Positions 2,954-30,815 of a DNA stretch of 39,864 bases are shown one piece after another. Under the pieces are notes generated by a model, which saw only the letters and a list, made by a program, of their open reading frames with translations, did not search any database and was not told where the DNA came from. The stretch comes from a virus. Made by a program: the position numbers and the translations under genes. The stretch covers positions 1 through 39,864 of IMG/VR virus record IMGVR_UViG_3300045988_044618; one strand, 5' to 3'. Numbering within the stretch: position 1 is the first letter of the stretch; the number at the start of each line of letters is the position of its first letter.

Positions 2954-3547
2954 ATGGAAAGTAGAGCTGATTTCCGAGAACGTGAAGGGCTTATTCTTTC
3001 GCAGTGCCGGTTGGAATCCGGGCTTTCGCAAGAATATGTAGCCCGGCAGATGGATGTGAACATCCGCACGGTGCGCAACTGGGAAGAAGGGCTTTCCCCT
3101 ATCCGAAACGATGACCTGTTGATGTGGTTCACCGTCTGCAAACAATCCCCATGGCGCTGGCTGCAGCGAATCTGGATGCCGTCTGCATTCAGCGATACCG
3201 ATACTCCAAACTGGACGGACGAGCAGGTAGACAAGGCACTTTCTGATTATATCGCTCAGATGCCGAGCGTGTACAAGCGAAGGCTGCTGTATATCCTTTG
3301 TGGGGCGCACGGGAGCGATTGGGCGGGCCAGATAGACTTATTGTGCGCTAACGCTCATACGTCCATGCAAAGCCGTGTACGCGTCTGCCAGGCCGTAATA
3401 CAGAACTACCGGATAGATACCGTAACTGGGGATGACCCATGCCAGGAAAGCATCAAGCCGGACTTTGACCGCCTGCAAATATGCCTGCAAGCCGGAGAAG
3501 CTGCCGTTCTGGCAGGCAATGGCGAATATAACGCAAGGGAAAAATAA
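2954..3547 (+). CDS. HTH (XRE-type) protein with unknown ~130-aa C-terminal domain (197 aa)
   Basis: N-terminal motif ESGLSQEYVARQMDVNIRTVRNWEEG. The SD is GAGGGTGA. It lies directly upstream of the integrase on the same strand. Confidence 0.75.
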   Translation: MESRADFREREGLILSQCRLESGLSQEYVARQMDVNIRTVRNWEEGLSPIRNDDLLMWFTVCKQSPWRWLQRIWMPSAFSDTDTPNWTDEQVDKALSDYIAQMPSVYKRRLLYILCGAHGSDWAGQIDLLCANAHTSMQSRVRVCQAVIQNYRIDTVTGDDPCQESIKPDFDRLQICLQAGEAAVLAGNGEYNAREK

Positions 3548-3647
3548 AAAATCCCCTGCCGGTGGTGCCACACCAGCAAGGGATAAAGGGCCGTCAACAT
3601 AAAAAGTTGACGGCATTATTATAACACACACACAAAGGAGCCGCAAT

Positions 3648-4733
3648 ATGAAAAGGACAAATACTGCAAAATGGATTGAAAGCGCCGGGCGTTGGCAAAT
3701 CAACGTGCAGAAGAACGGAGTGCGCAAGACGTTTACCAGCGCCAAGCCGGGCCGCACAGGCCAGAGGGAAGCTAACAAAAAAGCAGATGAATGGCTTGAC
3801 ATAGGCGTAAAGACGGAACGCATTAAGGTTTCTGACGCATGGGAACAGTTGTTACAGCAGAAAAAACTTGTGTCTGATGCAGAATACAAAAACATGGCAT
3901 CGTTTGGGCGCTCCCATTTGCTGCCAGCCATCGGGGTCAAGTCAGTAAAAGCCGTTACGGAACAGGATTTCCAAAAAATTATAGATTATGCGTTTCGCCA
4001 TCCACAGGGGAACAGCAAAGATCCCTTATCCAAAAAGACGTTACAGAACTATGCCAACTACTGCAAGCAATTTGTGAATTTTTGCCGAAAATCAAAATGG
4101 ACAACGCTTGAGCTTGAAGAGTTACAGATTCCGGCAGCGTCCAGAAAAAAGGGAAAGAACGTTCTGACAGTTGAAGCGCTGAACACACTATTAAAAGTAG
4201 ATACGACCATCATGCGCGGAAAATCTGTGCACGATGAATACATAAATTATTACAGGTTCCAAGTGCTAACAGGTATGCGCCCCGGTGAAATGCGGGGGCT
4301 GCGATGGGAAGACGTTGACGGGAATTTGTGCAGGTTGAAGCAGGCTATCAATGCGCACGGGCAAATCACGAAGGGAAAAAACGAAAACGCTTTGCGCACG
4401 GTCGTGCTATCCAGACGCGCAGTGGACGTGCTGGAAGCTCAGAAAGCCGTAACTGGAAAGCAGGAGTACATCTTCCCCATGGCATCCATGCACACCTACT
4501 ACCACCGCTGGCAGCGCTATCAGCGCTCTAATGACATGCCGGAGCTGAGTCTTTACGAACTGCGCCACACATTTGTTAGCATAGCAAAAGAGTTGCCAAC
4601 GGGCGAGTTAAAGCAGCTTGTCGGGCATAGCAAGGATATGGACACCTACGGCACATACTCTCATCACATCGCCGGAGACGACAAACGGACAGCGCAAAAT
4701 CTACAAGAAATCTTTGACAGACTGGTGGACTAA
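3648..4733 (+). CDS. int: Tyrosine recombinase / phage integrase (361 aa)
   Basis: Catalytic-domain motifs are present: GMRPGEMRGLRWEDV (Arg), LYELRHTFVS (H-x-x-R) and GHSKDMDTYGTYSHH (His/Tyr). The SD is AAAGGAG. attP-like repeats lie immediately downstream. Confidence 0.95.
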   Translation: MKRTNTAKWIESAGRWQINVQKNGVRKTFTSAKPGRTGQREANKKADEWLDIGVKTERIKVSDAWEQLLQQKKLVSDAEYKNMASFGRSHLLPAIGVKSVKAVTEQDFQKIIDYAFRHPQGNSKDPLSKKTLQNYANYCKQFVNFCRKSKWTTLELEELQIPAASRKKGKNVLTVEALNTLLKVDTTIMRGKSVHDEYINYYRFQVLTGMRPGEMRGLRWEDVDGNLCRLKQAINAHGQITKGKNENALRTVVLSRRAVDVLEAQKAVTGKQEYIFPMASMHTYYHRWQRYQRSNDMPELSLYELRHTFVSIAKELPTGELKQLVGHSKDMDTYGTYSHHIAGDDKRTAQNLQEIFDRLVD

Positions 4734-8840: not shown

Positions 8841-9329
8841 GTGGAAATTTCCCTAAAGGAATACGCCGCCCGGCATAGCCGCGCCGCGGCGACTGTCCGC
8901 CAAAAGGCCATCCGTGGCGGATTTAAGACCGCTCGCCGCGTTGGCCGTGACTGGCTCATTGATGAAGATGAACCCTACATTGACGAGCGCTTTGCCATGC
9001 TTTCCACGCCGCCAGACCTGTGGCTTTTGACAAACGGCAGGCACAGCCGCACCATCAGCGACGCCGGCGCCGTCAAAATCGGCAGCGACGAATTCTCCGC
9101 TCTTATTCCAACCGGCGCGGGTGACGGCGAATCTGCCTACTGCATCTATACGCGGGCAGAGCTGGACGCCGTCGGCATCAACACCGCCGACCTTCACTAC
9201 TTCACCCTTGTTTCCGGCAGCTTCAACATCTACGACTACGACTGCGGGTGCACCGTATCGGAGACTGTAAAAGGAATCTTCAACGTTTTCTATGCGGACG
9301 GTATCGTCTTTTTTGTAAAAGCCGAATAA
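8841..9329 (+). CDS. Excisionase/MerR-like HTH (HTH_17-type) N-domain protein with unknown C-domain (162 aa from GTG 8841)
   Basis: AAAGGAGG, 6 nt, then GTG. The N-terminus is ISLKEYAARHSRAAATVRQKAIRGGFKTARRVGRDWLI. The longer track ORF (8751) overlaps the upstream gene and lacks an SD. Confidence 0.7.
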   Translation: MEISLKEYAARHSRAAATVRQKAIRGGFKTARRVGRDWLIDEDEPYIDERFAMLSTPPDLWLLTNGRHSRTISDAGAVKIGSDEFSALIPTGAGDGESAYCIYTRAELDAVGINTADLHYFTLVSGSFNIYDYDCGCTVSETVKGIFNVFYADGIVFFVKAE

Positions 9330-9332
9330 AAT

Positions 9333-9385
9333 AAAAAAGCGCCCCTCCAGTGTCCACCATGGACACAATGAGGGGCGCTTTTTAT
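9333..9385. terminator. Bidirectional intrinsic terminator
   Basis: AAAAAAGCGCCCCTC ... GAGGGGCGCTTTTT with an inner GTGTCCA/TGGACAC hairpin. It lies between the convergent genes 8841..9329(+) and 9382..9552(-). Confidence 0.8.
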
Positions 9386-9552
9386 TCAGCCTTCAACTTC
9401 CCAACAATCGCCTTTACCCGTCTGTTTACCGTCCGTTCACTCAAATTCAGTTCTGCCGCAATATCAGCATTGCGCCAGCCGCGCCGCCGAAGCTGCAAAA
9501 CATCCGTTTCTTCATCGGTCAGCAAACCGCCGACAAAATCAAACTTTGGCAT
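9382..9552 (-). CDS. LuxR/GerE-type (sigma-70 region 4-like) HTH protein (56 aa)
   Basis: Sequence: MPKFDFVGGLLTDEETDVLQLRRRGWRNADIAAELNLSERTVNRRVKAIVGKLKAE. The ATG lies 2 nt after the holin stop. It is below the ORF-track cutoff. Confidence 0.7.
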   Translation of the reverse strand: MPKFDFVGGLLTDEETDVLQLRRRGWRNADIAAELNLSERTVNRRVKAIVGKLKAE

Positions 9553-15019: not shown

Positions 15020-16003
15020 TTAGTACCTCTTTGTAATTACAGGTGTCCCAAGTTCAACGCTGTACTGTGTGACATTGTTCTGCGCAGTAATAGTCTTTCC
15101 CATGATACGGACTTTCGCATTGATGCCCAGCTCTGGGAAAATGCAGGAAACAACGTCTCCCAAGTTCACGCAGTCGGAATCAATATCAAAGTCCATCGTT
15201 TCAAGGCGCAGCTGCTCAAGCAACTTGCCTTTCCCGTACTCCACAAGCCGCGCTTTGTAGTCCTTTAGGCTTTCGTCGTTTTTCTGCTGCTCCTGCCGAG
15301 CGTCTACGTACATTTCGCGACGGTCAATGCCCGCTGAAGCCGTGTCGCCTGCATAGACGGTGATACGCTCGTCGCCTGTGCCCGCGCCAGAAACGATAGC
15401 GACATTCTTGTAGCTTGCTGTTGAGACGCAGTAGTCCAGATTGCCGACATTTTGAAACCATGTCGAAAACTTTACGGTCTGACTTTCGCCCGGTTTGTAT
15501 ACCTCAAAAAGCAGCTTTCTATTCGGCTTGTCAAAGCGTAGCCTGAAACCAGCGTCAACGGCCTGCGCTATTTTTTCGCAGTATTCCTCAATGGTCTGGT
15601 CGGACGTTTGGGCCTCAAACTTGTCAGCAAGCCCGCATGACGCGCCCAGAGCCACGCAGGGCCACGCTTGCATATCATGAATAAGAGTACGCATAGCGGT
15701 TTCTGCGTTGATATTTGATAGCTCTGCGGTGCTTACGCGGTCAGATAAAAGCCGTGTTGCAGGAGCGCCGTTGACAATGATTTTGTTTCCCTCCGTCTGC
15801 ACGGATTTTATAATCATAAGCGTGTCGCTGTCGTCTATTTCGCAGTAATAGTCCTCTTTCATGAGGTCGCTGTATTCCTGCTGCTGCGACAATTCCAGCT
15901 GGAACGTGCCAAGCTGATTATATTTTTCCGTCCAAACAAGGGAGACAAACGTTTCAATCTGCCCGAGCTTGTTCAGTTGAGGGTCGTATACTCTACATAT
16001 CAT
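15020..16003 (-). CDS. Tail-tip protein, Siphovirus Gp37-like position (327 aa from ATG 16003)
   Basis: The N-terminus MICRVYDPQLNKLGQIETFVSLVWTEKYNQLGTFQLEL resembles Gp37-like tail proteins (from memory). The ATG overlaps the upstream stop. Confidence 0.6.
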   Translation of the reverse strand: MICRVYDPQLNKLGQIETFVSLVWTEKYNQLGTFQLELSQQQEYSDLMKEDYYCEIDDSDTLMIIKSVQTEGNKIIVNGAPATRLLSDRVSTAELSNINAETAMRTLIHDMQAWPCVALGASCGLADKFEAQTSDQTIEEYCEKIAQAVDAGFRLRFDKPNRKLLFEVYKPGESQTVKFSTWFQNVGNLDYCVSTASYKNVAIVSGAGTGDERITVYAGDTASAGIDRREMYVDARQEQQKNDESLKDYKARLVEYGKGKLLEQLRLETMDFDIDSDCVNLGDVVSCIFPELGINAKVRIMGKTITAQNNVTQYSVELGTPVITKRY

Positions 16004-16847
16004 CGAATACCCCCACATAGGCGTCATTATAGAAAACGCTCGTATTCAAGGCGTGTTCAGCGCCGTCAGTGTAGGAATGCTTGAGAATGTTGTCGCCCGC
16101 GCGAATGTAGTACAGGTTGCTTGCGTCATCGAGCTTTCCGTAGATGTTAGTTTCTACGTCACCGCTCGTTTTGATAACGGTCAGACGCTTGGATGCGCCC
16201 TCCCGGCTTACTGTGATATACTCGCCAGCTTGCAGTGATTCGTTGATTTTCAGCTTTTCCAGCGTGTTCACATTCGTGATTTCGGGATTGCTCAACGGAA
16301 GCTGCGCGTAGAAAATAACAGAGAACGTAACGTCCGTATCTCCGTCATTGATAAAGTTCATGAATACACTGCCGTCTGTAACGCCGAACTTGTGCTTTTT
16401 GTAGTTCACCGGGAACTTGAAGGACGGCGTCAGCTTTCCAATCTGCTGCCCTTTGCGGTCAGATGCCAGCCAGTAAGGGAAGGGGCAGAGAACCGTGAAC
16501 TGAAAAGCAGCGTCAAAGCGGCGCTGCTTGAAAGCCGGGGTTTTCTTCACGGTGCAGTTGCAGTAATAGCCGTCGCCGAAATACAGCTTGCCGAATGAGT
16601 TTGGCGTCAGGGTGCGCAGCATTTTACGCTTCATCACTCTGCTGTCGCCCAGCAGGTAGCCGCTGACTTCCCGCGTGATTTCTCCGACAGTCGCGCTCTC
16701 AAAGGTCTTGCCGACCTGTTGAAAGCCCTGCGACAGCGCTACATCAACATCTACATCCGAAAGAGGGTCTATATTCACGATAGAACCGTAATTATAGCCG
16801 AAATACAGCGTTTCGCCGTCATCCCGCACAAATCTTGCTGTGTACAT
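15993..16847 (-). CDS. Distal tail protein (Dit)-position phage tail protein (284 aa)
   Basis: It lies immediately downstream of the tape measure. The N-terminus MYTARFVRDDGETLYFGY is typical of phage-tail-family proteins (from memory). Confidence 0.7.
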   Translation of the reverse strand: MYTARFVRDDGETLYFGYNYGSIVNIDPLSDVDVDVALSQGFQQVGKTFESATVGEITREVSGYLLGDSRVMKRKMLRTLTPNSFGKLYFGDGYYCNCTVKKTPAFKQRRFDAAFQFTVLCPFPYWLASDRKGQQIGKLTPSFKFPVNYKKHKFGVTDGSVFMNFINDGDTDVTFSVIFYAQLPLSNPEITNVNTLEKLKINESLQAGEYITVSREGASKRLTVIKTSGDVETNIYGKLDDASNLYYIRAGDNILKHSYTDGAEHALNTSVFYNDAYVGVFDDM

Positions 16848-16860
16848 GCTTCACCCTCTT

Positions 16861-18892
16861 TCAAATTGCACCCATCATAAGCGCCCGCCGCTGCTCATAC
16901 TGCGCCTCGCGCATAAGCTCTGCCGCAGTTTTGGCCTGACTGTAGATGTTTTGGATAATAGTCACGCCGCCAACAGCAGCGTTTTTCTCGCCTTTTCGAT
17001 AGCTGTCGGCCTCTTTAGCCGTCAGAACCATTTCCCCGCGATGCAGGTTTGCAACGTAGTCGTTATAGGGAACATAGTCCAGACCGCCAGCGTGGGAGCC
17101 GTTTGTCTGCACCGTGCCGGTAAAGCCGGAGACCATGCCATCTACAAAATTTCCGACCTGTTCTTTCAGCCAGCCGCCCATACTCTTAATACCCTCGAGC
17201 AAGCTTTTTGCCGCGTTCACGCCTAAATCAAAGATTTTGCCGGGTAATTCCTGAAGGCCCGTAACAACAGCATCTAGCAAATCTTTTGCGGCCTGTTCAC
17301 CGTTTTTCCTCAATTCTTCGGCCCACTCTACGACTTTTTCAATCGTTTTTGTGAACCACTCTGCAATGTTTCCTGGCAACTGAGTAAAAAACTCAATTAC
17401 GTTATTCAGGAACGTAGATGCAGCGTCGATTGCGTTGGACTTCATTTGCCCAGCCCATGCAATGACGTTCTGGATCGTGGTAGACAGGAACGTTAAAACG
17501 TTGCCGGGCAGTTGCGTAAAGAACTCAACTACGTTTTGCAAGAATTGGGAACCAGCCTGCCGCGCATTCTCTACCGTTTCTATCGCCCAAATTGCGATGT
17601 TTGCAAGCGATGTGCCGAGAAATACGCCTAAGTTGTACGGGAGTTGCGAGAAAAATTCTACAACAGCATTGATAAAATCACTGCCAGCTTGGCGGGCATT
17701 CTCTGCTGTCTGTATAGCCCAATCTGCGATGCTCTGCACGGCGTTTGTCATGAACTCAGATATTTTATCGGGGAGCTGTTGAAACCACTCTATTGCACTG
17801 TTAATCGCCTCTGGAACGGTCTCTGTGAAGAATGTAACAACAGTGGTTTTAACAAACTCAAAAATTTCGTTGACTTTGTTTCTGAAATCTTCGTTCGTTG
17901 CGTACAGAGTGACAAATACGCCAATCAAAGCCGCAATCAGCGTGATTACGATTGCAATCGGGTTGGCTGACATAACGGCGTTGAGCGCAGCCTGCGCAGC
18001 CTTGAGTTTGCCTTGCGCCAAAGAAAGCAAATCAATTTTCCCAGTAAGCAGCCCAACGACAACTTCCGACCCTTTGAGCGTGCCATCCAAAGCGCCCTGT
18101 GCAACCTCTGAATCAGAAAGACCCATGCTGAACAGTGATACCGCAACTTTGGCCTCGTCGAAAGCAGTTACCATCTTCTGGATTTTCGTTCCAATTTGCC
18201 ATCCAGCAATAGCAGTGCCAACCGCGCCAATGGCAGGAGCCAAGTCTTCTATAACAGGGATTACTTCGTTGACTGCCTCTTTGACTTCATCAAAAATATC
18301 AAAAATTACACTAAAATCAGAATTTTCGATTGCGCTTGTCAGCGCATTTACTATCGCATCGCCAAAAAAAGAGAATAATTCATCAATGATTGGCTGTAAC
18401 TCGTCTGCCAAAAATCCAAGGCCGTTAAATAGTGCCTCTATCCCTTCTACGACGGTTGGCATCATGCTTTCAATAACAGTGCTGACTACAGGGGCCAACT
18501 GTGCACCTATTTCAGTCATGGCGTTAATCAGCGTTGGGACAATTTCTTGAATACGCGGCAAAATGTTTTGAGCAGCAGTAAGAAGACTGTCTACGAAATT
18601 ATTGATTAGCTGCTGAACATCCTGTTCGGGGTCTGCAATGCCTGTAAGCAGATTTTCCCAGGCGCTCTTCATCGAAGCTGTACTACCTTGGATGGTAGTT
18701 GCAGCTTCTTTGCTGGTCGTCCCCATGATGCCCATGTTGGCCTGCACCACGTGGATAGCAGAGACAATGTTAGAGTATGACAAGCTGGAGCCGTCCACCG
18801 TTACGCCGAGTTCTTTTTGCACATCCGTAAGCGTGGATGCCTCTTTCACAAGGCGCTCCATTTCGGTTTTTGTACCACCATACCCAAGTTTG
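16861..18892 (-). CDS. Tape measure protein, exon 2
   Basis: The frame is open upstream of the annotated Met as (L)KLGYGGTKTEMERLVKEA. The body is long and helical with ~37-aa internal repeats (ARQAGS.F...VVEFF.QLP). Joined to exon 1, it gives an 857-aa protein. Confidence 0.85.
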
Positions 18893-19097
18893 CACTTTGT
18901 TAATCTCCCGCTTGTACAATCAGCATATACGGGAGGTCAGACTGTCGCTTCTCCTATTTATAGGAGTCCTCTCACTCAGTCGTTCACGCTGGCATTACCT
19001 TGCGCCCTGTTGCCCCTGCTGCGGGGTGTCCAAGTCAATCAGAGAGGATTCGCGCTTGCGGATTATGTATTATGCCACAGCGCCCCCAAAGGTGTTA
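18893..19097 (-). ncRNA. Group I-like self-splicing intron (205 nt, no ORF) in the tape measure gene
   Basis: It starts after U (19098) and ends in G (18893). Helices: P3 19048-19042/18973-18967, P7 18981-18977/18944-18940, P8 18966-18961/18956-18951, P9 18935-18930/18910-18905. Removing it restores NYTMLDNL|KLGYGGTKTEM in frame. Confidence 0.65.
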
Positions 19098-19639
19098 AGG
19101 TTATCGAGCATGGTATAGTTTTGCTTCGCAAACCCGTTATATGCGTCCTGGATGGACTGCATATTGGTGCCCATTTTGTTTGCATTATCGGACATATCCG
19201 AAATTGCAGTATTCGCCATTTCAGCGGCTTTTTGTGTATCGCCGCCCAAACTTGAAACCAGAGTCGCAGCAAACGATGTTGATGTCTCCATGTACTCGTT
19301 TGCAGACAGGCCAACGTTCTTGTACGCGTCTTTTGCATAGCCCTCAATAATACCTGCGCTGTCCTTGTACAAGGTTTCTACGCCGCCGACAAGCTGCTCA
19401 TAGTCTGCGTAACTGCTCAGGGATGCTTTTCCAATATTGAGAGCTGCACCTGCTGCCGATTTTCCAACAGATACAATCGTGCTTCCAACAGCTTTCAGGC
19501 CATCAAAAACTGCATTTCCAAGAAACGTCCCGCTGAACACATCCCAAAAAGATGTTGTTTTGCCGCTTGCATCGTTTAACTGCCGTTCATAATCATCTGT
19601 ATCAAGACTTAATTTTGCGTTTAGATTAAATACGTCCAA
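19098..19639 (-). CDS. Tape measure protein, exon 1 (TTG start)
   Basis: AACTAGAAAGGAG, 7 nt, then TTG 19639. The exon ends ...GFAKQNYTMLDNL. In the unspliced RNA the frame would read through NTFGGAVA to a stop at 19070. Confidence 0.85.
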
Positions 19640-19657: not shown

Positions 19658-19686
19658 TTGATTTTTTGTTAGCCATGCTGTATCCT
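19658..19686 (+). promoter_or_regulatory. Candidate promoter of the plus-strand moron
   Basis: TTGATT (19658-19663), 17 nt, TATCCT (19681-19686). The -35 overlaps the same CTCCTTTCTAGTT element that overlaps the -35 of the switch promoter at 980. Confidence 0.4.
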
Positions 19687-19707
19687 AGCTTTAGGAGGTG
19701 TTTTGCT

Positions 19708-20082
19708 ATGGCAAAAGCTAAAAATGCAGTTATCGCAGGAGATTACGTCGGAAAGAAGGTCAATCTTTCTTTTGGTCGAGTTCAACTCGACATGGGATTG
19801 ATGCCCGCAATCACATTAGACAGAAGCACCGTTGCAGATTGTTCTGTTGTGGATGAATCTCAGAAGAAGTCTATGTCTTCTGGTGTGATGCGTGGTCTTG
19901 TTGGCGGCGCCTTTCTTGGGCCTGCTGGTCTCGTGGCTGGCGCAGTCACCGCAAAACAAAAAGGCATTTATCAGATTGCAATTCAGCTGAAAGAAGACCC
20001 CCAGTGGGTTGCAAGCGGTAAACGCTTTTTAATCGAGGTAGACGATAAAATCTACAAAGCCATTATGACAAACTGCTTCTAA
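19708..20082 (+). CDS. Moron: 124-aa protein with glycine-zipper-like hydrophobic segment
   Basis: AGGAGG, 8 nt, then ATG 19708 (the track start at 19666 lacks an SD). The hydrophobic segment is GVMRGLVGGAFLGPAGLVAGAVTA. It lies on the opposite strand inside the tail module and is followed by a hairpin terminator. Confidence 0.7.
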   Translation: MAKAKNAVIAGDYVGKKVNLSFGRVQLDMGLMPAITLDRSTVADCSVVDESQKKSMSSGVMRGLVGGAFLGPAGLVAGAVTAKQKGIYQIAIQLKEDPQWVASGKRFLIEVDDKIYKAIMTNCF

Positions 20083-20085
20083 AAT

Positions 20086-20124
20086 GAGCCGCCCTATTTT
20101 GGGGGCGGCTCTTCCAGTTTTCTC
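20086..20124 (+). terminator. Hairpin terminator after the moron
   Basis: GAGCCGCCC-TATTTT-GGGGGCGGCTC followed by TTCCAGTTTTCTC. It overlaps the 3' end of the minus-strand 85-aa ORF. Confidence 0.5.
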
Positions 20125-20351
20125 AGCTTGTTCTTCATGTGTTCTTTGATTTCATCCGCTGTTCGGGTTTCCTCTGGCGGCGGGTTGATTATATCCCAGT
20201 ACCTTTTCGGCTCGCTTTTTGTTTTTATCATGTTTTTTGTAATCGTGATAAGTACATCCGACATATAAACACGATATGCCACTTCATCCGTTTTTTCTTT
20301 GATTCGGTATGGCAGTGCCGACATAAACGCACGGGCGCTCAGTTTCGGCAT
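20094..20351 (-). CDS. Tail assembly chaperone, -1 frame extension (gpT-like part of a G/GT pair)
   Basis: There is no SD before ATG 20351. This frame stays open upstream to the slippery site at 20402-20408. It sits between the chaperone and the tape measure. Confidence 0.65.
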   Translation of the reverse strand: MPKLSARAFMSALPYRIKEKTDEVAYRVYMSDVLITITKNMIKTKSEPKRYWDIINPPPEETRTADEIKEHMKNKLRKLEEPPPK

Positions 20352-20368: not shown

Positions 20369-20740
20369 TTACGCTTTCTGCGCCGTACCGAAAGACTGTT
20401 TGAAAAAATTAACGAAGTCCTCGTCTTTCACAAGTTCGTTAATCTGCGCCAACGTGCTTAAGAAACCCTGCTTTCCGCATTCTTCTGGGGTAAGGCCGTT
20501 AAACAGAGAAAGAATCGCATATACGTCTTCTCTGTGGTCTTTCAAGAAGATGGGAACAAGATTCACAACGCGCGTAAGGCCGAACCTATAGACGTCAATC
20601 TGCGTATGTTCCCCTTTGGGAAGCCTGCGTTGAACCTCTGCAATGAGGTTTTTGTCATCGGCCATGTTCTGGATATGAGGGGCGGCGATGCACAAGACAT
20701 CGCAGGTCTCGTCGGTTGTCATCTGAGAAAGCAGTCGCAT
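20369..20740 (-). CDS. Tail assembly chaperone (gpG-like, 123 aa)
   Basis: The SD is GGAGGA with a 7-nt spacer. It lies between the major tail protein and the tape measure. It contains a slippery heptamer near its 3' end. Confidence 0.75.
   Translation of the reverse strand: MRLLSQMTTDETCDVLCIAAPHIQNMADDKNLIAEVQRRLPKGEHTQIDVYRFGLTRVVNLVPIFLKDHREDVYAILSLFNGLTPEECGKQGFLSTLAQINELVKDEDFVNFFKQSFGTAQKA
20402..20408 (-). promoter_or_regulatory. -1 programmed ribosomal frameshift slippery heptamer U UUU UUC
   Basis: On the minus strand the 0 frame reads AAT TTT TTC AAA. The -1 frame is open from here through 20351 to 20094. Confidence 0.6.
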
Positions 20741-20743
20741 TTT

Positions 20744-21310
20744 TTATTCCTCCGTGCTGTCGATGCTGTAGAACTCCATAGGGACAACGTCCTGCGCAGT
20801 GATGGAGACATGGCCAGTCAGCTCACAGGAAATCTGCCCCTTGCCGCTCTTGGTAGTCTGCAACGAGAAGCCACCAGTGGACAAAGCGTTTTTCAGGCAG
20901 ATAGCAACGCAGCCACCATCGGCGCGGTCACCTACCCACCACAGTTCGTCTTTGAAGTCGGTTTGCTTCAAGTCGCGGCGAGGCGTAATCTTGTTCGTGG
21001 TAACGTCTGCACAGCCCAGAGCCATCTTGATGTTGTCAGGGGACGTGCCAAGAGCCGTGAAGGACATTTTGCACTCCCAGCCGTCCAGATGTTTCAGCTC
21101 TTTGGTATTGACCGGGCAGTTGTCAACGTCCTCGCCCAAATCGGAGAAGGTCGGAACGCAAGTGGCGTTGATGCCGCCAGTAGTGGCGCAGATAATGTCG
21201 CCGTCCTTCGGAGCGGCAATGCTTGCTGGGTTGAATGTGTTCAACAGCACACCAGCGTCAAGCTGCAATGCGTCAAACGTATCTTTGGGAATAGCGGTAA
21301 ATTTACCCAT
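20744..21310 (-). CDS. Major tail protein (188 aa)
   Basis: The SD is GAGGTG. Position and size fit. The N-terminus MGKFTAIPKDTFDALQLDAGVLL is typical of siphovirus major tail proteins (from memory). Confidence 0.75.
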   Translation of the reverse strand: MGKFTAIPKDTFDALQLDAGVLLNTFNPASIAAPKDGDIICATTGGINATCVPTFSDLGEDVDNCPVNTKELKHLDGWECKMSFTALGTSPDNIKMALGCADVTTNKITPRRDLKQTDFKDELWWVGDRADGGCVAICLKNALSTGGFSLQTTKSGKGQISCELTGHVSITAQDVVPMEFYSIDSTEE

Positions 21311-30204: not shown

Positions 30205-30660
30205 TTATATCCCCCAAAACCCCTTTGCGCCGGAGGAAAAGCGCGTTCCCGCCCTACCGGTCTCTGCTATGCCGGTCTCACCCGTTGCGGTGAGCAAATC
30301 CGCAACGTAGTTCAGCAGCACTTGTATTCCGCGCGCTTACCCGCGGTCTCTGCTTTGATGTTATGGGTTCCGGCGATGCGTAACTGCGTCAGTAACGTAG
30401 TCCGCACAAGCAGATGCCGAACGGTTTTCTCGATGTCACCGTCTAAACGTCCCCGAACTTCTCCGCTTTCAAAATCGGTGTGCAATCGGGTATGCGCCCT
30501 GTCGTATAGGGCTATGCACCGTCGATCTTCCGAGGTGTCGGTTATCTATCGCGTTTCCTACGCCGGGCTTTCACCGGTGGGAGCGACCCAGCACGTGCCC
30601 TCAGCCGGACTTGAACCGGCACACCAAGGCTCTTGCCATTGAGCTACAAGGGCATGTGCG
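30205..30660 (-). ncRNA. Candidate large structured non-coding RNA (~450 nt) beginning with a tRNA-like element
   Basis: There is no credible ORF on either strand. The region is GC-rich with many hairpins. A possible long-range helix pairs 30581-30574 with 30260-30252. GCAGAGACCG and ACTACGTT motifs are each duplicated. The region is bounded by a tRNA and a terminator. Confidence 0.5.
30596..30653 (-). ncRNA. tRNA-like element lacking an anticodon arm
   Basis: It has an acceptor-like stem GCCCTTG/TGAGGGC, a D-arm GCTC-AATGGCAA-GAGC and a T-arm GCCGG-TTCAAGT-CCGGC. Only 8 nt (CTTGGTGT) link the D and T arms. There is no CCA. The stem extends to 13 bp (30659..30591). Confidence 0.6.
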
Positions 30661-30741: not shown

Positions 30742-30815
30742 TGGCGCGGGTGGAAGGTCTTGACCCCTCATCTTGCGGTTTTGGATACCGCAGTTCTGCA
30801 TTGAACTACACCCGC
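30742..30815 (-). tRNA. tRNA-Trp (anticodon CCA), 74 nt with encoded CCA
   Basis: It has a perfect 7-bp acceptor stem GCGGGTG/CACCCGC, discriminator G and anticodon arm GCGGT-ATCCAAA-ACCGC. The D-loop (AATGCA) lacks GG and the T-loop is GTCAAGA. Confidence 0.75.

What the first reader, a model, noticed from the sequence alone, without database searches (positions are those of the whole stretch)
18893..19097. Group I-like intron (205 nt) splitting the tape measure gene
The track shows two adjacent minus-strand ORFs (19070..19639 and 16861..18861) about 200 nt apart. ORF1 reads ...GFAKQNYTMLDNL and then runs into NTFGGAVA-stop. The frame of ORF2 is open upstream of its Met as KLGYGGTKTEMERLVKEA. 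Joining nt 19098 to nt 18892 gives GAT AAC CT|C AAA CTT GGG, which reads ...NYTMLDNLKLGYGGTKTEMERL.... I recognise that contiguous motif from uninterrupted Firmicute-phage tape measure proteins. The joined product is a single 857-aa ORF. The excised 205 nt begin after a U and end in G, as group I splicing requires. They also fold in the diagnostic group I core order P7-P3'-P8-P8'-P7'. P1 is CCU|UAA-CACC-UUUGGG, with U.G at the splice site. P2 is 19083-19052. P3 is TCCTCTC 19048-19042 / GAGAGGA 18973-18967. P7 is GACTG 18981-18977 / CAGTC 18944-18940. P8 is CTCCTA 18966-18961 / TAGGAG 18956-18951. P9 is CTCCCG 18935-18930 / CGGGAG 18910-18905. There is no homing endonuclease ORF. Introns in phage structural genes are known but uncommon, and tail length would depend on splicing.
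Basis: partly seen in the sequence, partly recalled or inferred. Interest (0 to 1): 0.8.

Follow-up and report, generated by a model that had tools for sequence, protein, structure and literature searches.

The report
Small self-splicing intron in tail gene

Summary
The observation and the interpretation both hold. Window 18893-19097 (minus strand) is a 205-nt insertion that splits a tape-measure (TMP) gene inside the conserved motif NYTMLDNL|KLGYGG. Uninterrupted homologues read straight through, and one differs from the window by a gap of exactly 205 nt.

The insert belongs to a large RNA family (at least 120 viral contigs). Other members split ribonucleotide reductase, coat and other phage genes, and some carry GIY-YIG or HNH endonuclease ORFs.

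On 96 distinct cores the group I fold (P3-P8, with the P3/P7 pseudoknot and a bulged P7) is 97.4% paired, against 38-47% in slid controls. 19 of 31 pairs show compensatory changes.

Fourteen distinct copies at the same TMP site keep P1 with U.G at the splice site, P2, P9, a terminal G, and an in-frame stop in the P2 loop. A model trained without any TMP copy finds the window's element at 97 bits.

Rfam does not detect it. Rfam also scores T4 td below threshold and misses T4 nrdB, so that negative result carries little weight.

Splicing itself was not shown. Group I introns in TMP genes are published (B. cereus-group prophages, IA1/IA2). This one is a compact, structurally different lineage, so I file it as a new member of a known kind.

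The parts
19098..19639 (-). TMP exon 1 (TTG start at 19639 as listed; the last exon base is U19098)
   Evidence: ORF list. PHROG tape-measure families phrog_6900/58/3981. Homologues read through the junction.
18893..19097 (-). Group I intron, 205 nt, no ORF
   Evidence: Exact 205-nt gap against intron-less L001. Family covariation. Held-out covariance model gives 97 bits, E 4.7e-18 for the core 18936-19058.
16861..18892 (-). TMP exon 2 (first base C18892; stop codon included at 16861-16863)
   Evidence: Frame open from 18892. PHROG tape-measure families. The spliced product aligns to phrog_58 in one stretch, residues 46-773.
19084..19100 (-). P1 hairpin: 5' strand CCU|UAA (19100-19095) pairs with the internal guide UUGGGG (19089-19084). 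U19098.G19086 is the wobble pair at the 5' splice site.
   Evidence: MFE fold. P1 is present in 14 of 14 TMP-site copies at 5-6 bp. RNAalifold.
19052..19083 (-). P2 hairpin (9 bp with a 1-nt bulge). Its loop holds the in-frame stop UAA at 19072-19070 that ends the exon-1 reading frame.
   Evidence: Compensatory changes, e.g. UGUGG/CCGCA versus UCGCC/GGCGA. GCAUAA is conserved in the loop.
19042..19048 (-). P3 5' strand (UCCUCUC)
   Evidence: 7 of 7 pairs covary across 96 cores.
18967..18973 (-). P3 3' strand (GAGAGGA)
19006..19034 (-). P4-P5 arm: P4 is 19034-19031/19009-19006, P5 is 19026-19023/19016-19013, with A-rich J4/5 and J5/4.
   Evidence: P5 covaries at 4 of 4 pairs. P4 is invariant, which the search pattern partly imposes, so P4 is compatible but untested.
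18986..19005 (-). P6/P6a: P6 is 19005-19002/18989-18986, P6a is 18999-18998/18992-18991.
   Evidence: P6 pair C-G to G-C, 71:25. P6a has CG, GC and UA.
18977..18983 (-). P7 5' strand: A18983, bulged C18982, GACUG 18981-18977. G18981-C18940 is the presumed guanosine-binding pair.
   Evidence: The outer pair across the bulge is AU 70, GC 22, CG 2, UA 2. The inner pair is AU 75, GC 20, UA 1.
18939..18944 (-). P7 3' strand (CAGUCU), preceded by J8/7 AAGCGA at 18950-18945
   Evidence: The motif GNGANAGUC was not part of the database scan pattern, yet it occurs within 110 nt in 116 of 128 members.
18951..18966 (-). P8 hairpin (CUCCUA/UAGGAG)
   Evidence: 4 of 4 tested pairs covary.
18905..18935 (-). 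P9 hairpin (CUCCCG...CGGGAG)
   Evidence: Compensatory variants CUACCG/CGGUAG, CUGCAC/GUGCAG, CUGUAC/GUACAG, CUGCAA/UUGCAG.
18893..18904 (-). 3' tail AUUAACAAAGUG. The terminal G18893 is omega-G. GU 18895-18894 can pair with AC 18937-18936 (P9.0, tentative).
   Evidence: Terminal G followed by CAA in 14 of 14 copies. P9.0 forms 2 bp in 8 of 14, with three pair types.
18889..18892 (-). P10 partner: the first four exon-2 bases, CAAA, pair with UUUG at 19090-19087, so the ligated exons CCU|CAAA line up on the guide UUUGGGG.
   Evidence: 4 bp in the window and L081, 2 bp in the other 12 copies.

Best explanation
Window 18893-19097 (minus strand) is a compact group I self-splicing intron with no endonuclease ORF, sitting inside the tail tape-measure gene of a siphovirus-type (pro)phage.

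Proposed mechanism:
1. The gene is transcribed as one pre-mRNA.
2. Ribosomes translating exon 1 stop at the UAA in the P2 loop, before the catalytic core.
3. The RNA folds into P1-P9.
4. An external guanosine bound at the G-C pair of P7 next to the bulged base attacks after U19098, which is held in a U.G wobble by the internal guide UUGGGG.
5. The terminal G18893 then takes the guanosine site. Exon 2 is aligned on the same guide by P10.
6. The exons are ligated to ...GAU AAC CU|C AAA CUU GGG..., giving one 857-aa tape-measure protein that reads NYTMLDNLKLGYGG.

Shown here: the exact 205-nt insertion, the fold with covariation, membership of a family that splits many phage genes, and conservation of the splice-site features.

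Inferred: that splicing actually happens, the guanosine chemistry, and the exact phosphodiester (a 1-nt shift would give the same protein but would not end the intron in G).
For: Insertion and host gene:
- Intron-less homologues: L001 shows a gap of exactly 205 nt. L001 and L002 read NYTMLDNLK(I/L)GYGG without interruption.
- The joined frame is open for 857 codons.
- The spliced protein aligns to tape-measure PHROGs in a single stretch across residue 181. phrog_58 scores 252 bits, against 102 and 128 for the halves; phrog_6900 covers residues 46-207.
- Neighbouring genes are the canonical tail module: major tail protein, chaperones, TMP, Dit, minor tail protein.

RNA family:
- At least 120 IMG/VR contigs hold the core pattern.
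- Members lie between halves of the P22-type coat gene and RNR genes. In L007 a single RNR barrel-domain alignment crosses the junction.
- Some members encode GIY-YIG or HNH endonucleases.

Structure:
- On 96 distinct cores, 97.4% of cells are paired against 38-47% in slid controls. 19 of 31 pairs have compensatory changes. The covariation score is 0.478 against 0.06-0.09. 0 of 500 shuffles reach the observed values.
- The supported fold includes the P3/P7 pseudoknot and a P7 pair spanning a bulged base with four pair types.
- RNAalifold independently finds P1, P2, P3-P6, P8 and P9.

TMP-site copies:
- 14 distinct copies of 201-213 nt lie at the identical TMP site in otherwise unalignable phages.
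- All have P1 with U.G, the same P2 architecture, a P9 whose sequence varies compensatorily, a terminal G followed by CAA, and a stop codon in L2.
- Flanking ORFs are intact in relatives.

Models:
- A covariance model built without the window or any TMP copy scores the window's core at 97 bits, E 4.7e-18.
Against: - No match to Rfam Intron_gpI, even at E<=10. This is weakened by the control: T4 td scores below the gathering cut-off and T4 nrdB is missed.
- No RNA or protein data, so splicing is not demonstrated.
- P4, and part of the P6/P7 invariance, is imposed by the search pattern used to collect the family, so those pairs are untested.
- The single-sequence fold is only moderately better than shuffles (z = -2.2).
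- P9.0 and P10 are weak in most copies.
- The subgroup could not be assigned.
Confidence: 0.9

Rival explanations
1. It is a dead intron relic, or a split gene. The element descends from a group I intron but no longer splices. The tape-measure function is then either lost (a defective prophage) or supplied by two separate polypeptides: 189 aa ending NTFGGAVA, and 666 aa starting at Met 18861.
For: - Splicing is not demonstrated.
- Exon 2 has an in-frame ATG at 18861.
- Gene callers everywhere annotate the halves as separate proteins.
- Functional split genes without an intron exist, e.g. Aeh1 nrdA as described in PMC3653736.
Against: - Every core position that is invariant in the family is intact in the window.
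- 14 diverged copies at this site keep all helices through compensatory changes, which needs selection on the RNA.
- The 10 codons upstream of Met 18861 (KLGYGGTKTE) are conserved with homologues and are in frame exactly from the predicted 3' splice site.
- Both exons are free of stops and frameshifts over 857 codons.
Confidence: 0.06
2. It is a non-intron insertion, such as a miniature transposable element or another structured RNA, that happens to sit in the gene.
For: A short 'AA' is repeated at both boundaries (CUU AA... / ...GC AA), so a 2-nt target duplication cannot be excluded from the sequence alone. There is no Rfam hit.
Against: - The fold is the specific group I topology, with pseudoknot, bulged P7, U.G and terminal G, and it is supported by covariation.
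- Relatives carry homing endonuclease ORFs and always sit in frame-restoring positions inside genes.
- The element occurs once in the window, not as dispersed copies.
Confidence: 0.02
3. Translational bypassing, as in T4 gene 60: ribosomes hop over the insert from the CUU at 19099-19097 to the CUU at 18888-18886.
For: Matching CUU codons lie near both boundaries.
Against: - The hop would delete Lys-Leu and give DNL-GYGG, whereas homologues have DNLKLGYGG.
- The gap is about 210 nt against 50 nt in gene 60 (established knowledge).
- No stop codon follows the take-off codon.
- Bypassing does not explain the conserved ribozyme core.
Confidence: 0.005

Closest known systems
Group I introns TMP-IVS1, IVS2, IVS3a/b in tape-measure genes of Bacillus cereus-group prophages, including B. 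anthracis lambda01 (Tourasse & Kolsto 2008, PMC2504315). The same paper lists a TMP intron in Lactobacillus phage JCL1032.
   Same: - Same host gene type, in (pro)phages of Firmicutes.
- Several insertion sites within one conserved gene.
- Most copies lack a complete endonuclease gene.
- Related introns sit at the same site in different phages.
- P1/P10 are adapted to the site.
   Different: - Those introns are IA1 or IA2. The window's intron has no room for P7.1/P7.2: 0 nt between P3' and P8, and 3 nt between P7 and P3'.
- It is only 205 nt.
- It sits in a different TMP family, from gut Clostridia phages.
- Sequence relatedness to the Bacillus introns was not tested, because those sequences were not on hand.
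Introns in capsid and minor-tail genes of Cluster J mycobacteriophages (Pope et al. 2013, PMC3706429)
   Same: Group I introns in late structural genes of temperate siphoviruses. The tail-gene introns there lack an endonuclease.
   Different: Splicing was shown experimentally there. The host gene and bacterial phylum differ. No structural comparison was made here.
Phage T4 td and nrdB introns (subgroup IA2, with I-TevI / I-TevIII)
   Same: Same class of ribozyme and same biology: insertion in conserved codons, and members of the window's family also sit in RNR genes and can carry GIY-YIG or HNH ORFs.
   Different: My family model does not recognise the T4 introns (best 11.9 bits). The T4 introns are about 600-1000 nt with ORFs, while this one is 205 nt and ORF-less.
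Minimal bacterial group I ribozymes such as the Azoarcus pre-tRNA-Ile intron (IC3, about 205 nt). This comparison is from memory and was not tested.
   Same: Similar size and the same stripped-down set of helices (P2, P3-P9, no P5abc, no P7.1/7.2).
   Different: That intron sits in a tRNA anticodon loop rather than in a protein-coding gene.

Membership tests
Group I self-splicing intron | Conserved core of paired regions in the order P3-P4-P5-P5'-P4'-P6-P6'-P7-P3'-P8-P8'-P7', with the P3/P7 pseudoknot | tested here: met
   97.4% of cells paired on 96 distinct cores against 38-47% in slid controls. 19 of 31 pairs have compensatory changes. P3 covaries at 7/7 pairs, P5 at 4/4, P8 at 4/4, and P6 and P7 covary where they vary. 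P4 is invariant and therefore untested.
Group I self-splicing intron | P1 helix formed by the end of the 5' exon and an internal guide sequence, with a U.G wobble at the cleavage site | tested here: met
   CCU|UAA pairs with UUGGGG, with U19098.G19086. The same helix is present in 14 of 14 copies at this site. Two adjacent U.G pairs exist, and the choice between them rests on the terminal-G rule.
Group I self-splicing intron | The intron ends in G (omega-G) | tested here: met
   G18893. A terminal G followed by CAA is found in 14 of 14 copies. A site-C intron in a related TMP also follows a U and ends in G.
Group I self-splicing intron | Guanosine-binding G-C pair in P7 next to a bulged nucleotide | tested here: met
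   G18981-C18940 lies next to bulged C18982. The pair across the bulge shows AU, GC, CG and UA. The invariance of the G-C pair itself is partly imposed by the search pattern. That this is the G site follows from established knowledge of group I structure (Tetrahymena G264-C311, A263 bulge), recalled rather than computed.
Group I self-splicing intron | Precise removal restores an uninterrupted, conserved host reading frame | tested here: met
   857-codon open frame. Exact 205-nt gap against L001. Motif continuity in L001 and L002. Single-stretch PHROG alignment across the junction.
Group I self-splicing intron | Match to the curated covariance model Rfam RF00028 (Intron_gpI) | tested here: not met
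   No hit at the gathering score or at E<=10, nor in four relatives. The control shows the model is not a valid membership test for phage introns: T4 td scores 40.3 bits against a 50-bit cut-off, and nrdB is absent.
Group I self-splicing intron | Guanosine-dependent self-splicing of the transcript | not testable with these tools
   Needs in-vitro transcription with GTP and Mg2+, or RNA from infected cells.
Subgroup IA1/IA2 (the class of the published TMP introns and of most phage introns) | Extra helices P7.1/P7.2 between P7/P3' and P8 | tested here: not met
   0 nt between P3' (ends 18967) and P8 (starts 18966), and only AGU between P7 and P3'. So the element is not filed under IA.
Mobile (homing) group I intron | Intron-encoded homing endonuclease | tested here: not met
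   There is no room for an ORF in 205 nt. Other family members do carry GIY-YIG or HNH ORFs. All 14 TMP site-A copies are 201-213 nt.

The most novel reading that the evidence does not exclude
The nine-codon stretch QNYT-MLDNL-KLG-YGG of this tape-measure family is a contested homing hot spot, with at least three adjacent intron sites. The small endonuclease-less site-A intron may persist and spread because its presence splits the recognition sequences of the HNH endonucleases encoded by the site-B and site-C introns of competing phages. That would be immunity by occupancy during co-infection. Alternatively, host-dependent splicing may gate tail assembly. Either reading would make the intron a functional player in phage-phage competition rather than a passive parasite.
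Probability: 0.1. Interest if true: 0.6.

Novelty: new member of a known kind. Interest (0 to 1): 0.35.

Why it matters
**Annotation.** Gene callers split this tape-measure gene into two 'hypothetical' proteins. Among the 120 best homologues of exon 1 in a 5.8-billion-protein database, about 100 are truncated within a few codons of this motif and only 11 read through. Tail-length predictions and protein clustering for many gut phages are therefore wrong for a trivial reason.

**Detection.** The RNA lineage is common in viral metagenomes (at least 120 contigs). It is nearly absent from deposited phage genomes (4 of 50,697, none annotated as an intron), and the Rfam group I model does not see it. 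A dedicated model would recover many split phage genes.

**Ribozyme.** At about 205 nt with rich natural covariation, it is a compact candidate for study.

None of this changes what is known about how such introns work.

Tried and rejected
- **Rfam.** Gathering threshold on the whole window, permissive search on 18700-19300, on four relatives and on site-B/C loci: no group I hit anywhere. I rejected this as evidence against an intron after the T4 control.
- **Family model R1 against T4 td/nrdB**: only noise, so no detectable sequence kinship with IA2 introns.
- **R1 on the site-B and site-C TMP insertions**: no hit, so they are different lineages.
- **Pfam on the TMP and its halves**: only sub-threshold noise. 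PHROGs was needed to name the gene.
- **Exact-sequence look-ups of two window proteins in public assemblies**: not on record, so the window's source genome was not identified. The nearest DNA relatives are human faecal phage contigs.
- **MAFFT columns for P1/P2** put the window and L081 one base out of register, so I evaluated those helices per sequence instead.
- **Considered and rejected:** translational bypass (it would delete Lys-Leu), intein (in-frame stops), miniature transposon (single copy, ribozyme core), group II intron (far too small, wrong structure).
- **Not resolved:** subgroup assignment. The resemblance to IC3 or to the canonical R/S core elements is from memory only.

Full report
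**1. What is in the sequence**

On the minus strand, an ORF at 19070-19639 (189 aa) ends ...GFAKQNYTMLDNLNTFGGAVA*. A second ORF at 16861-18861 (666 aa) begins 208 nt further on. The frame of the second ORF is open upstream of its Met as KLGYGGTKTE.

Joining base 19098 to base 18892 removes 205 nt and gives one 857-codon frame reading ...NYTMLDNLKLGYGGTKTEMERL....

**2. The insertion is real and lies inside a tape-measure gene**

- A blastn search of the phage collection found many tape-measure genes matching exon 1 up to within 3 nt of the proposed junction.
- One human-gut phage contig (L001, MT838285) matches both sides with a net gap of exactly 205 nt. It reads ...NYTMLDNLKIGYGGT... without interruption. 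A second contig (L002) reads ...NYTMLDNLKLGYGGTKQEMERL....
- PHROGs names both halves 'tail length tape measure protein'. The spliced product aligns in a single stretch across the junction: phrog_58, residues 46-773, 252 bits against 102 and 128 for the halves; phrog_6900, residues 46-207.
- The neighbours form the standard siphovirus tail module: major tail protein 20744-21310, chaperone-position genes 20369-20740 and 20094-20351, then TMP, Dit 15993-16847 and minor tail protein 15020-16027.

**3. The insert belongs to a large family of gene-splitting RNAs**

The insert's core (P3 to P7') matched four unrelated records by blastn.

| Locus | Record | Position of the match |
|---|---|---|
| L004 | Freshwater podovirus | Between two 'P22 coat protein' CDS halves |
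| L005 | Roseobacter phage CRP-118 | Between two ribonucleotide reductase CDSs |
| L006 | Desulfovibrio phage | Unannotated |
| L007 | Thioalkalivibrio plasmid | Unannotated |

In most members a long open frame runs into the element and stops 16-55 nt before the core, and another long frame leaves it. Pfam on joined flanks gave:
- a class I/II RNR whose barrel-domain alignment crosses the junction unbroken (L007);
- B12-dependent RNR (L119, L033);
- NrdD with an HNH ORF (L006);
- GIY-YIG ORFs (L098, L073).

Twelve members have an ORF inserted in P8. By eye these look GIY-YIG-like, but I did not verify that. This is the typical biology of mobile group I introns.

**4. Structure**

I aligned 96 distinct cores (A2) and wrote the group I core onto the columns: P3, P4, P5, P6, P6a, P7 with one bulged base, and P8, with P3 and P7 crossing as a pseudoknot. 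Pair counting gave:

| Measure | Observed | Control |
|---|---|---|
| Cells forming a standard pair | 97.4% | 38-47% in the six slid controls; 81% in shuffles |
| Pairs with changes on both sides | 19 of 31 | - |
| Covariation score | 0.478 | 0.06-0.09 (slid) |
| Shuffles reaching the observed paired %, cells changed on both sides, further pair types or covariation score | 0 of 500 | - |

Per helix:
- P3 covaries at all 7 pairs, P5 at 4 of 4, P8 at 4 of 4.
- One P6 pair switches C-G to G-C (71:25).
- The P7 pair that spans the bulged base shows AU 70, GC 22, CG 2 and UA 2.

Caveat: P4, and part of P6/P7, is fixed by the pattern used to collect the family, so those pairs say nothing either way.

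From established knowledge (recalled, not computed), the arrangement N-bulge-GACU(A/G)-AGU-P3' ... A(A/U)GCGA(C/U)AGUC corresponds closely to the canonical R and S elements. It also matches Tetrahymena C262-A263(bulge)-G264 ... C311-G312, where G264-C311 binds guanosine.

**5. Splice-site features, tested on copies at the same site**

The nine closest IMG/VR relatives sit at the same position in diverged tape-measure genes. Seven more copies came from bacterial genomes: Lachnospiraceae, Oscillospiraceae, Acutalibacteraceae, Ruminococcus, Enterococcus, and two low-coverage 'Streptomyces' contigs.

Together they give 14 distinct introns of 201-213 nt. The surrounding genomes are otherwise too diverged to align by blastn. 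RNAalifold on eight of them predicts P1, P2, P3-P6, P8 and P9.

Per-sequence evaluation shows, in all 14:
- P1 of 5-6 bp (CCUUA(A)/(U)UGGGG) with U.G at the cleavage site;
- a P2 of identical architecture but different sequence;
- a P9 stem with compensatory variants;
- a terminal G followed by CAA.

The in-frame stop (GCAUAA) in the P2 loop is conserved. Such a stop is expected for a phage intron that has to fold behind a translating ribosome.

In the window, the guide UUUGGGG is complementary to the ligated exons CCU|CAAA. P10 is only 2 bp in most other copies. P9.0 (GU/AC) forms in 8 of 14, so both are tentative. Two adjacent U.G pairs mean the 5' cut could be one base further on.

**6. Covariance models**

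| Model | Trained on | Result |
|---|---|---|
| R1 | Alignment A2 | One real hit in the window (18936-19058, 104 bits). Held-out genome copies score 107-120 bits. |
| R2 | 85 cores, excluding the window and every TMP-site copy | Window's element at 97 bits, E 4.7e-18. |

The only other 'hit' in the window (9293-9388, about 16 bits) is a terminator-like hairpin.

**7. The negative Rfam result**

Rfam found no group I intron in the window, in four relatives or in other interrupted TMP loci. As a control I ran the same search on phage T4. The td intron reached 40.3 bits against a gathering score of 50, and the nrdB intron was not reported at E<=1. The model is therefore not informative for phage introns of this kind.

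**8. Comparison with what is known**

[quoted passage not shown] They also list a TMP intron in Lactobacillus phage JCL1032. Those introns are IA1 or IA2, and most lack a complete endonuclease gene. Pope et al. (2013, PMC3706429) showed splicing of introns in capsid and minor-tail genes of mycobacteriophages.

The phenomenon is therefore established. The differences here are:
- The intron has no P7.1/P7.2, so it is not IA.
- It is very small.
- Its lineage is common in viral metagenomes but present in only 4 of 50,697 deposited phage genomes, none annotated as an intron.
- T4-type introns and this family do not recognise each other at the model level.
- I could not assign a subgroup.

**9. An unexpected side result**

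I searched the large protein database with the exon-1 ORF. Of the best 120 clusters, only 11 read through the motif. About 100 stop within a few codons of it, at three positions:

| Site | Position | Typical tail |
|---|---|---|
| A (the window's site) | ...MLDNL\| | N(T/I/N)(F/M)G...AA*, about 40 clusters |
| B | ...MLDNLKLG\| | RQKNMPLAA*, KLHHCSV* and similar |
| C | ...KQNYT\| | INLMSAA*, including a Gemmiger formicilis entry seen on 18 contigs |

Loci for sites B and C carry insertions of about 800 nt, with an HNH/NUMOD4 ORF between the TMP halves. The site-C join (ACGAU|...AAAUG|GUUAGAC) restores NYT-M-LDNLKLGYGG and again follows U and ends in G. They are not detected by R1, so they are different introns. 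This nine-codon stretch is an insertion hot spot, much like the three-site picture in Bacillus.

**10. Verdict**

The finding is correct: a compact, endonuclease-less group I intron, confidence about 0.9. Splicing is inferred, not shown. It is a new member of a known kind. Its practical value is for phage annotation and for RNA-family coverage. Its conceptual novelty is low, unless the hot-spot competition idea turns out to be true.

Noticed in passing
window 30244-30307 (-), 30596-30653 (-), 30745-30815 (-): A full-length D12-methyl RNA motif (Rfam RF02950, 89 bits against a cut-off of 57) and two tRNA genes lie about 11 kb from the finding.
   Followed up: no
window 19666-20082 (+): A 138-aa ORF on the opposite strand is wedged between the tail-chaperone-position genes and the tape-measure start. 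It has no Pfam hit. It may be a moron-type insertion or a spurious ORF.
   Followed up: partly
L136/L137 about 3050-3875; L139 about 3380-4208: Related tape-measure genes carry different, larger (about 800 nt) insertions with HNH_3/NUMOD4 endonuclease ORFs. They sit only 5 codons upstream (site C) or 3 codons downstream (site B) of the window's site. The site-C join restores the motif, follows a U and ends in G. Neither my family model nor Rfam detects them.
   Followed up: partly
protein hits P0001-P0120: Of the 120 best homologues of exon 1, about 100 are gene calls truncated within a few codons of the NYTMLDNLKLGYGG motif and only 11 read through. Interrupted alleles dominate this TMP family in public metagenomes.
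   Followed up: partly
P0025, P0029, P0053, P0063: Some homologues continue after MLDNLKL as RIWWNK(N/R)RNAT.... This is the +1 frame of GYGGTK..., so it is either a frameshift or yet another insertion boundary. Unexplained.
   Followed up: no
L024, L048, L105: Three viral contigs hold two copies of the intron family 300-800 nt apart on the same strand, so some genes carry multiple introns of this lineage.
   Followed up: no
L021, L034, L042, L044, L050, L067, L069, L071, L080, L115, L121: Family members in which P8 is expanded by an ORF. Several start MIVYWIR..DIY..GYVGIT, which looks GIY-YIG-like by eye, but I did not check them against Pfam.
   Followed up: no
L130 and L132 ('Streptomyces sp.' contigs, coverage 1.5x and 5x): The same TMP intron turns up in two Streptomyces assemblies on low-coverage contigs, while all other hosts are gut or rumen Firmicutes. 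This is probably contamination of those assemblies.
   Followed up: no
L135 (phage T4) 12956-14720 and 18236-20113: Rfam's Intron_gpI model scores the T4 td intron below its own gathering cut-off (40.3 against 50 bits) and does not report the nrdB intron at E<=1. This is a general blind spot when scanning phages with Rfam.
   Followed up: yes
window 9293-9388 (-): A GC-rich hairpin followed by a U-run (GCGCCCC...GGGGCGCUUUUUU) was picked up as a weak false hit by both covariance models. It looks like an intrinsic terminator.
   Followed up: no
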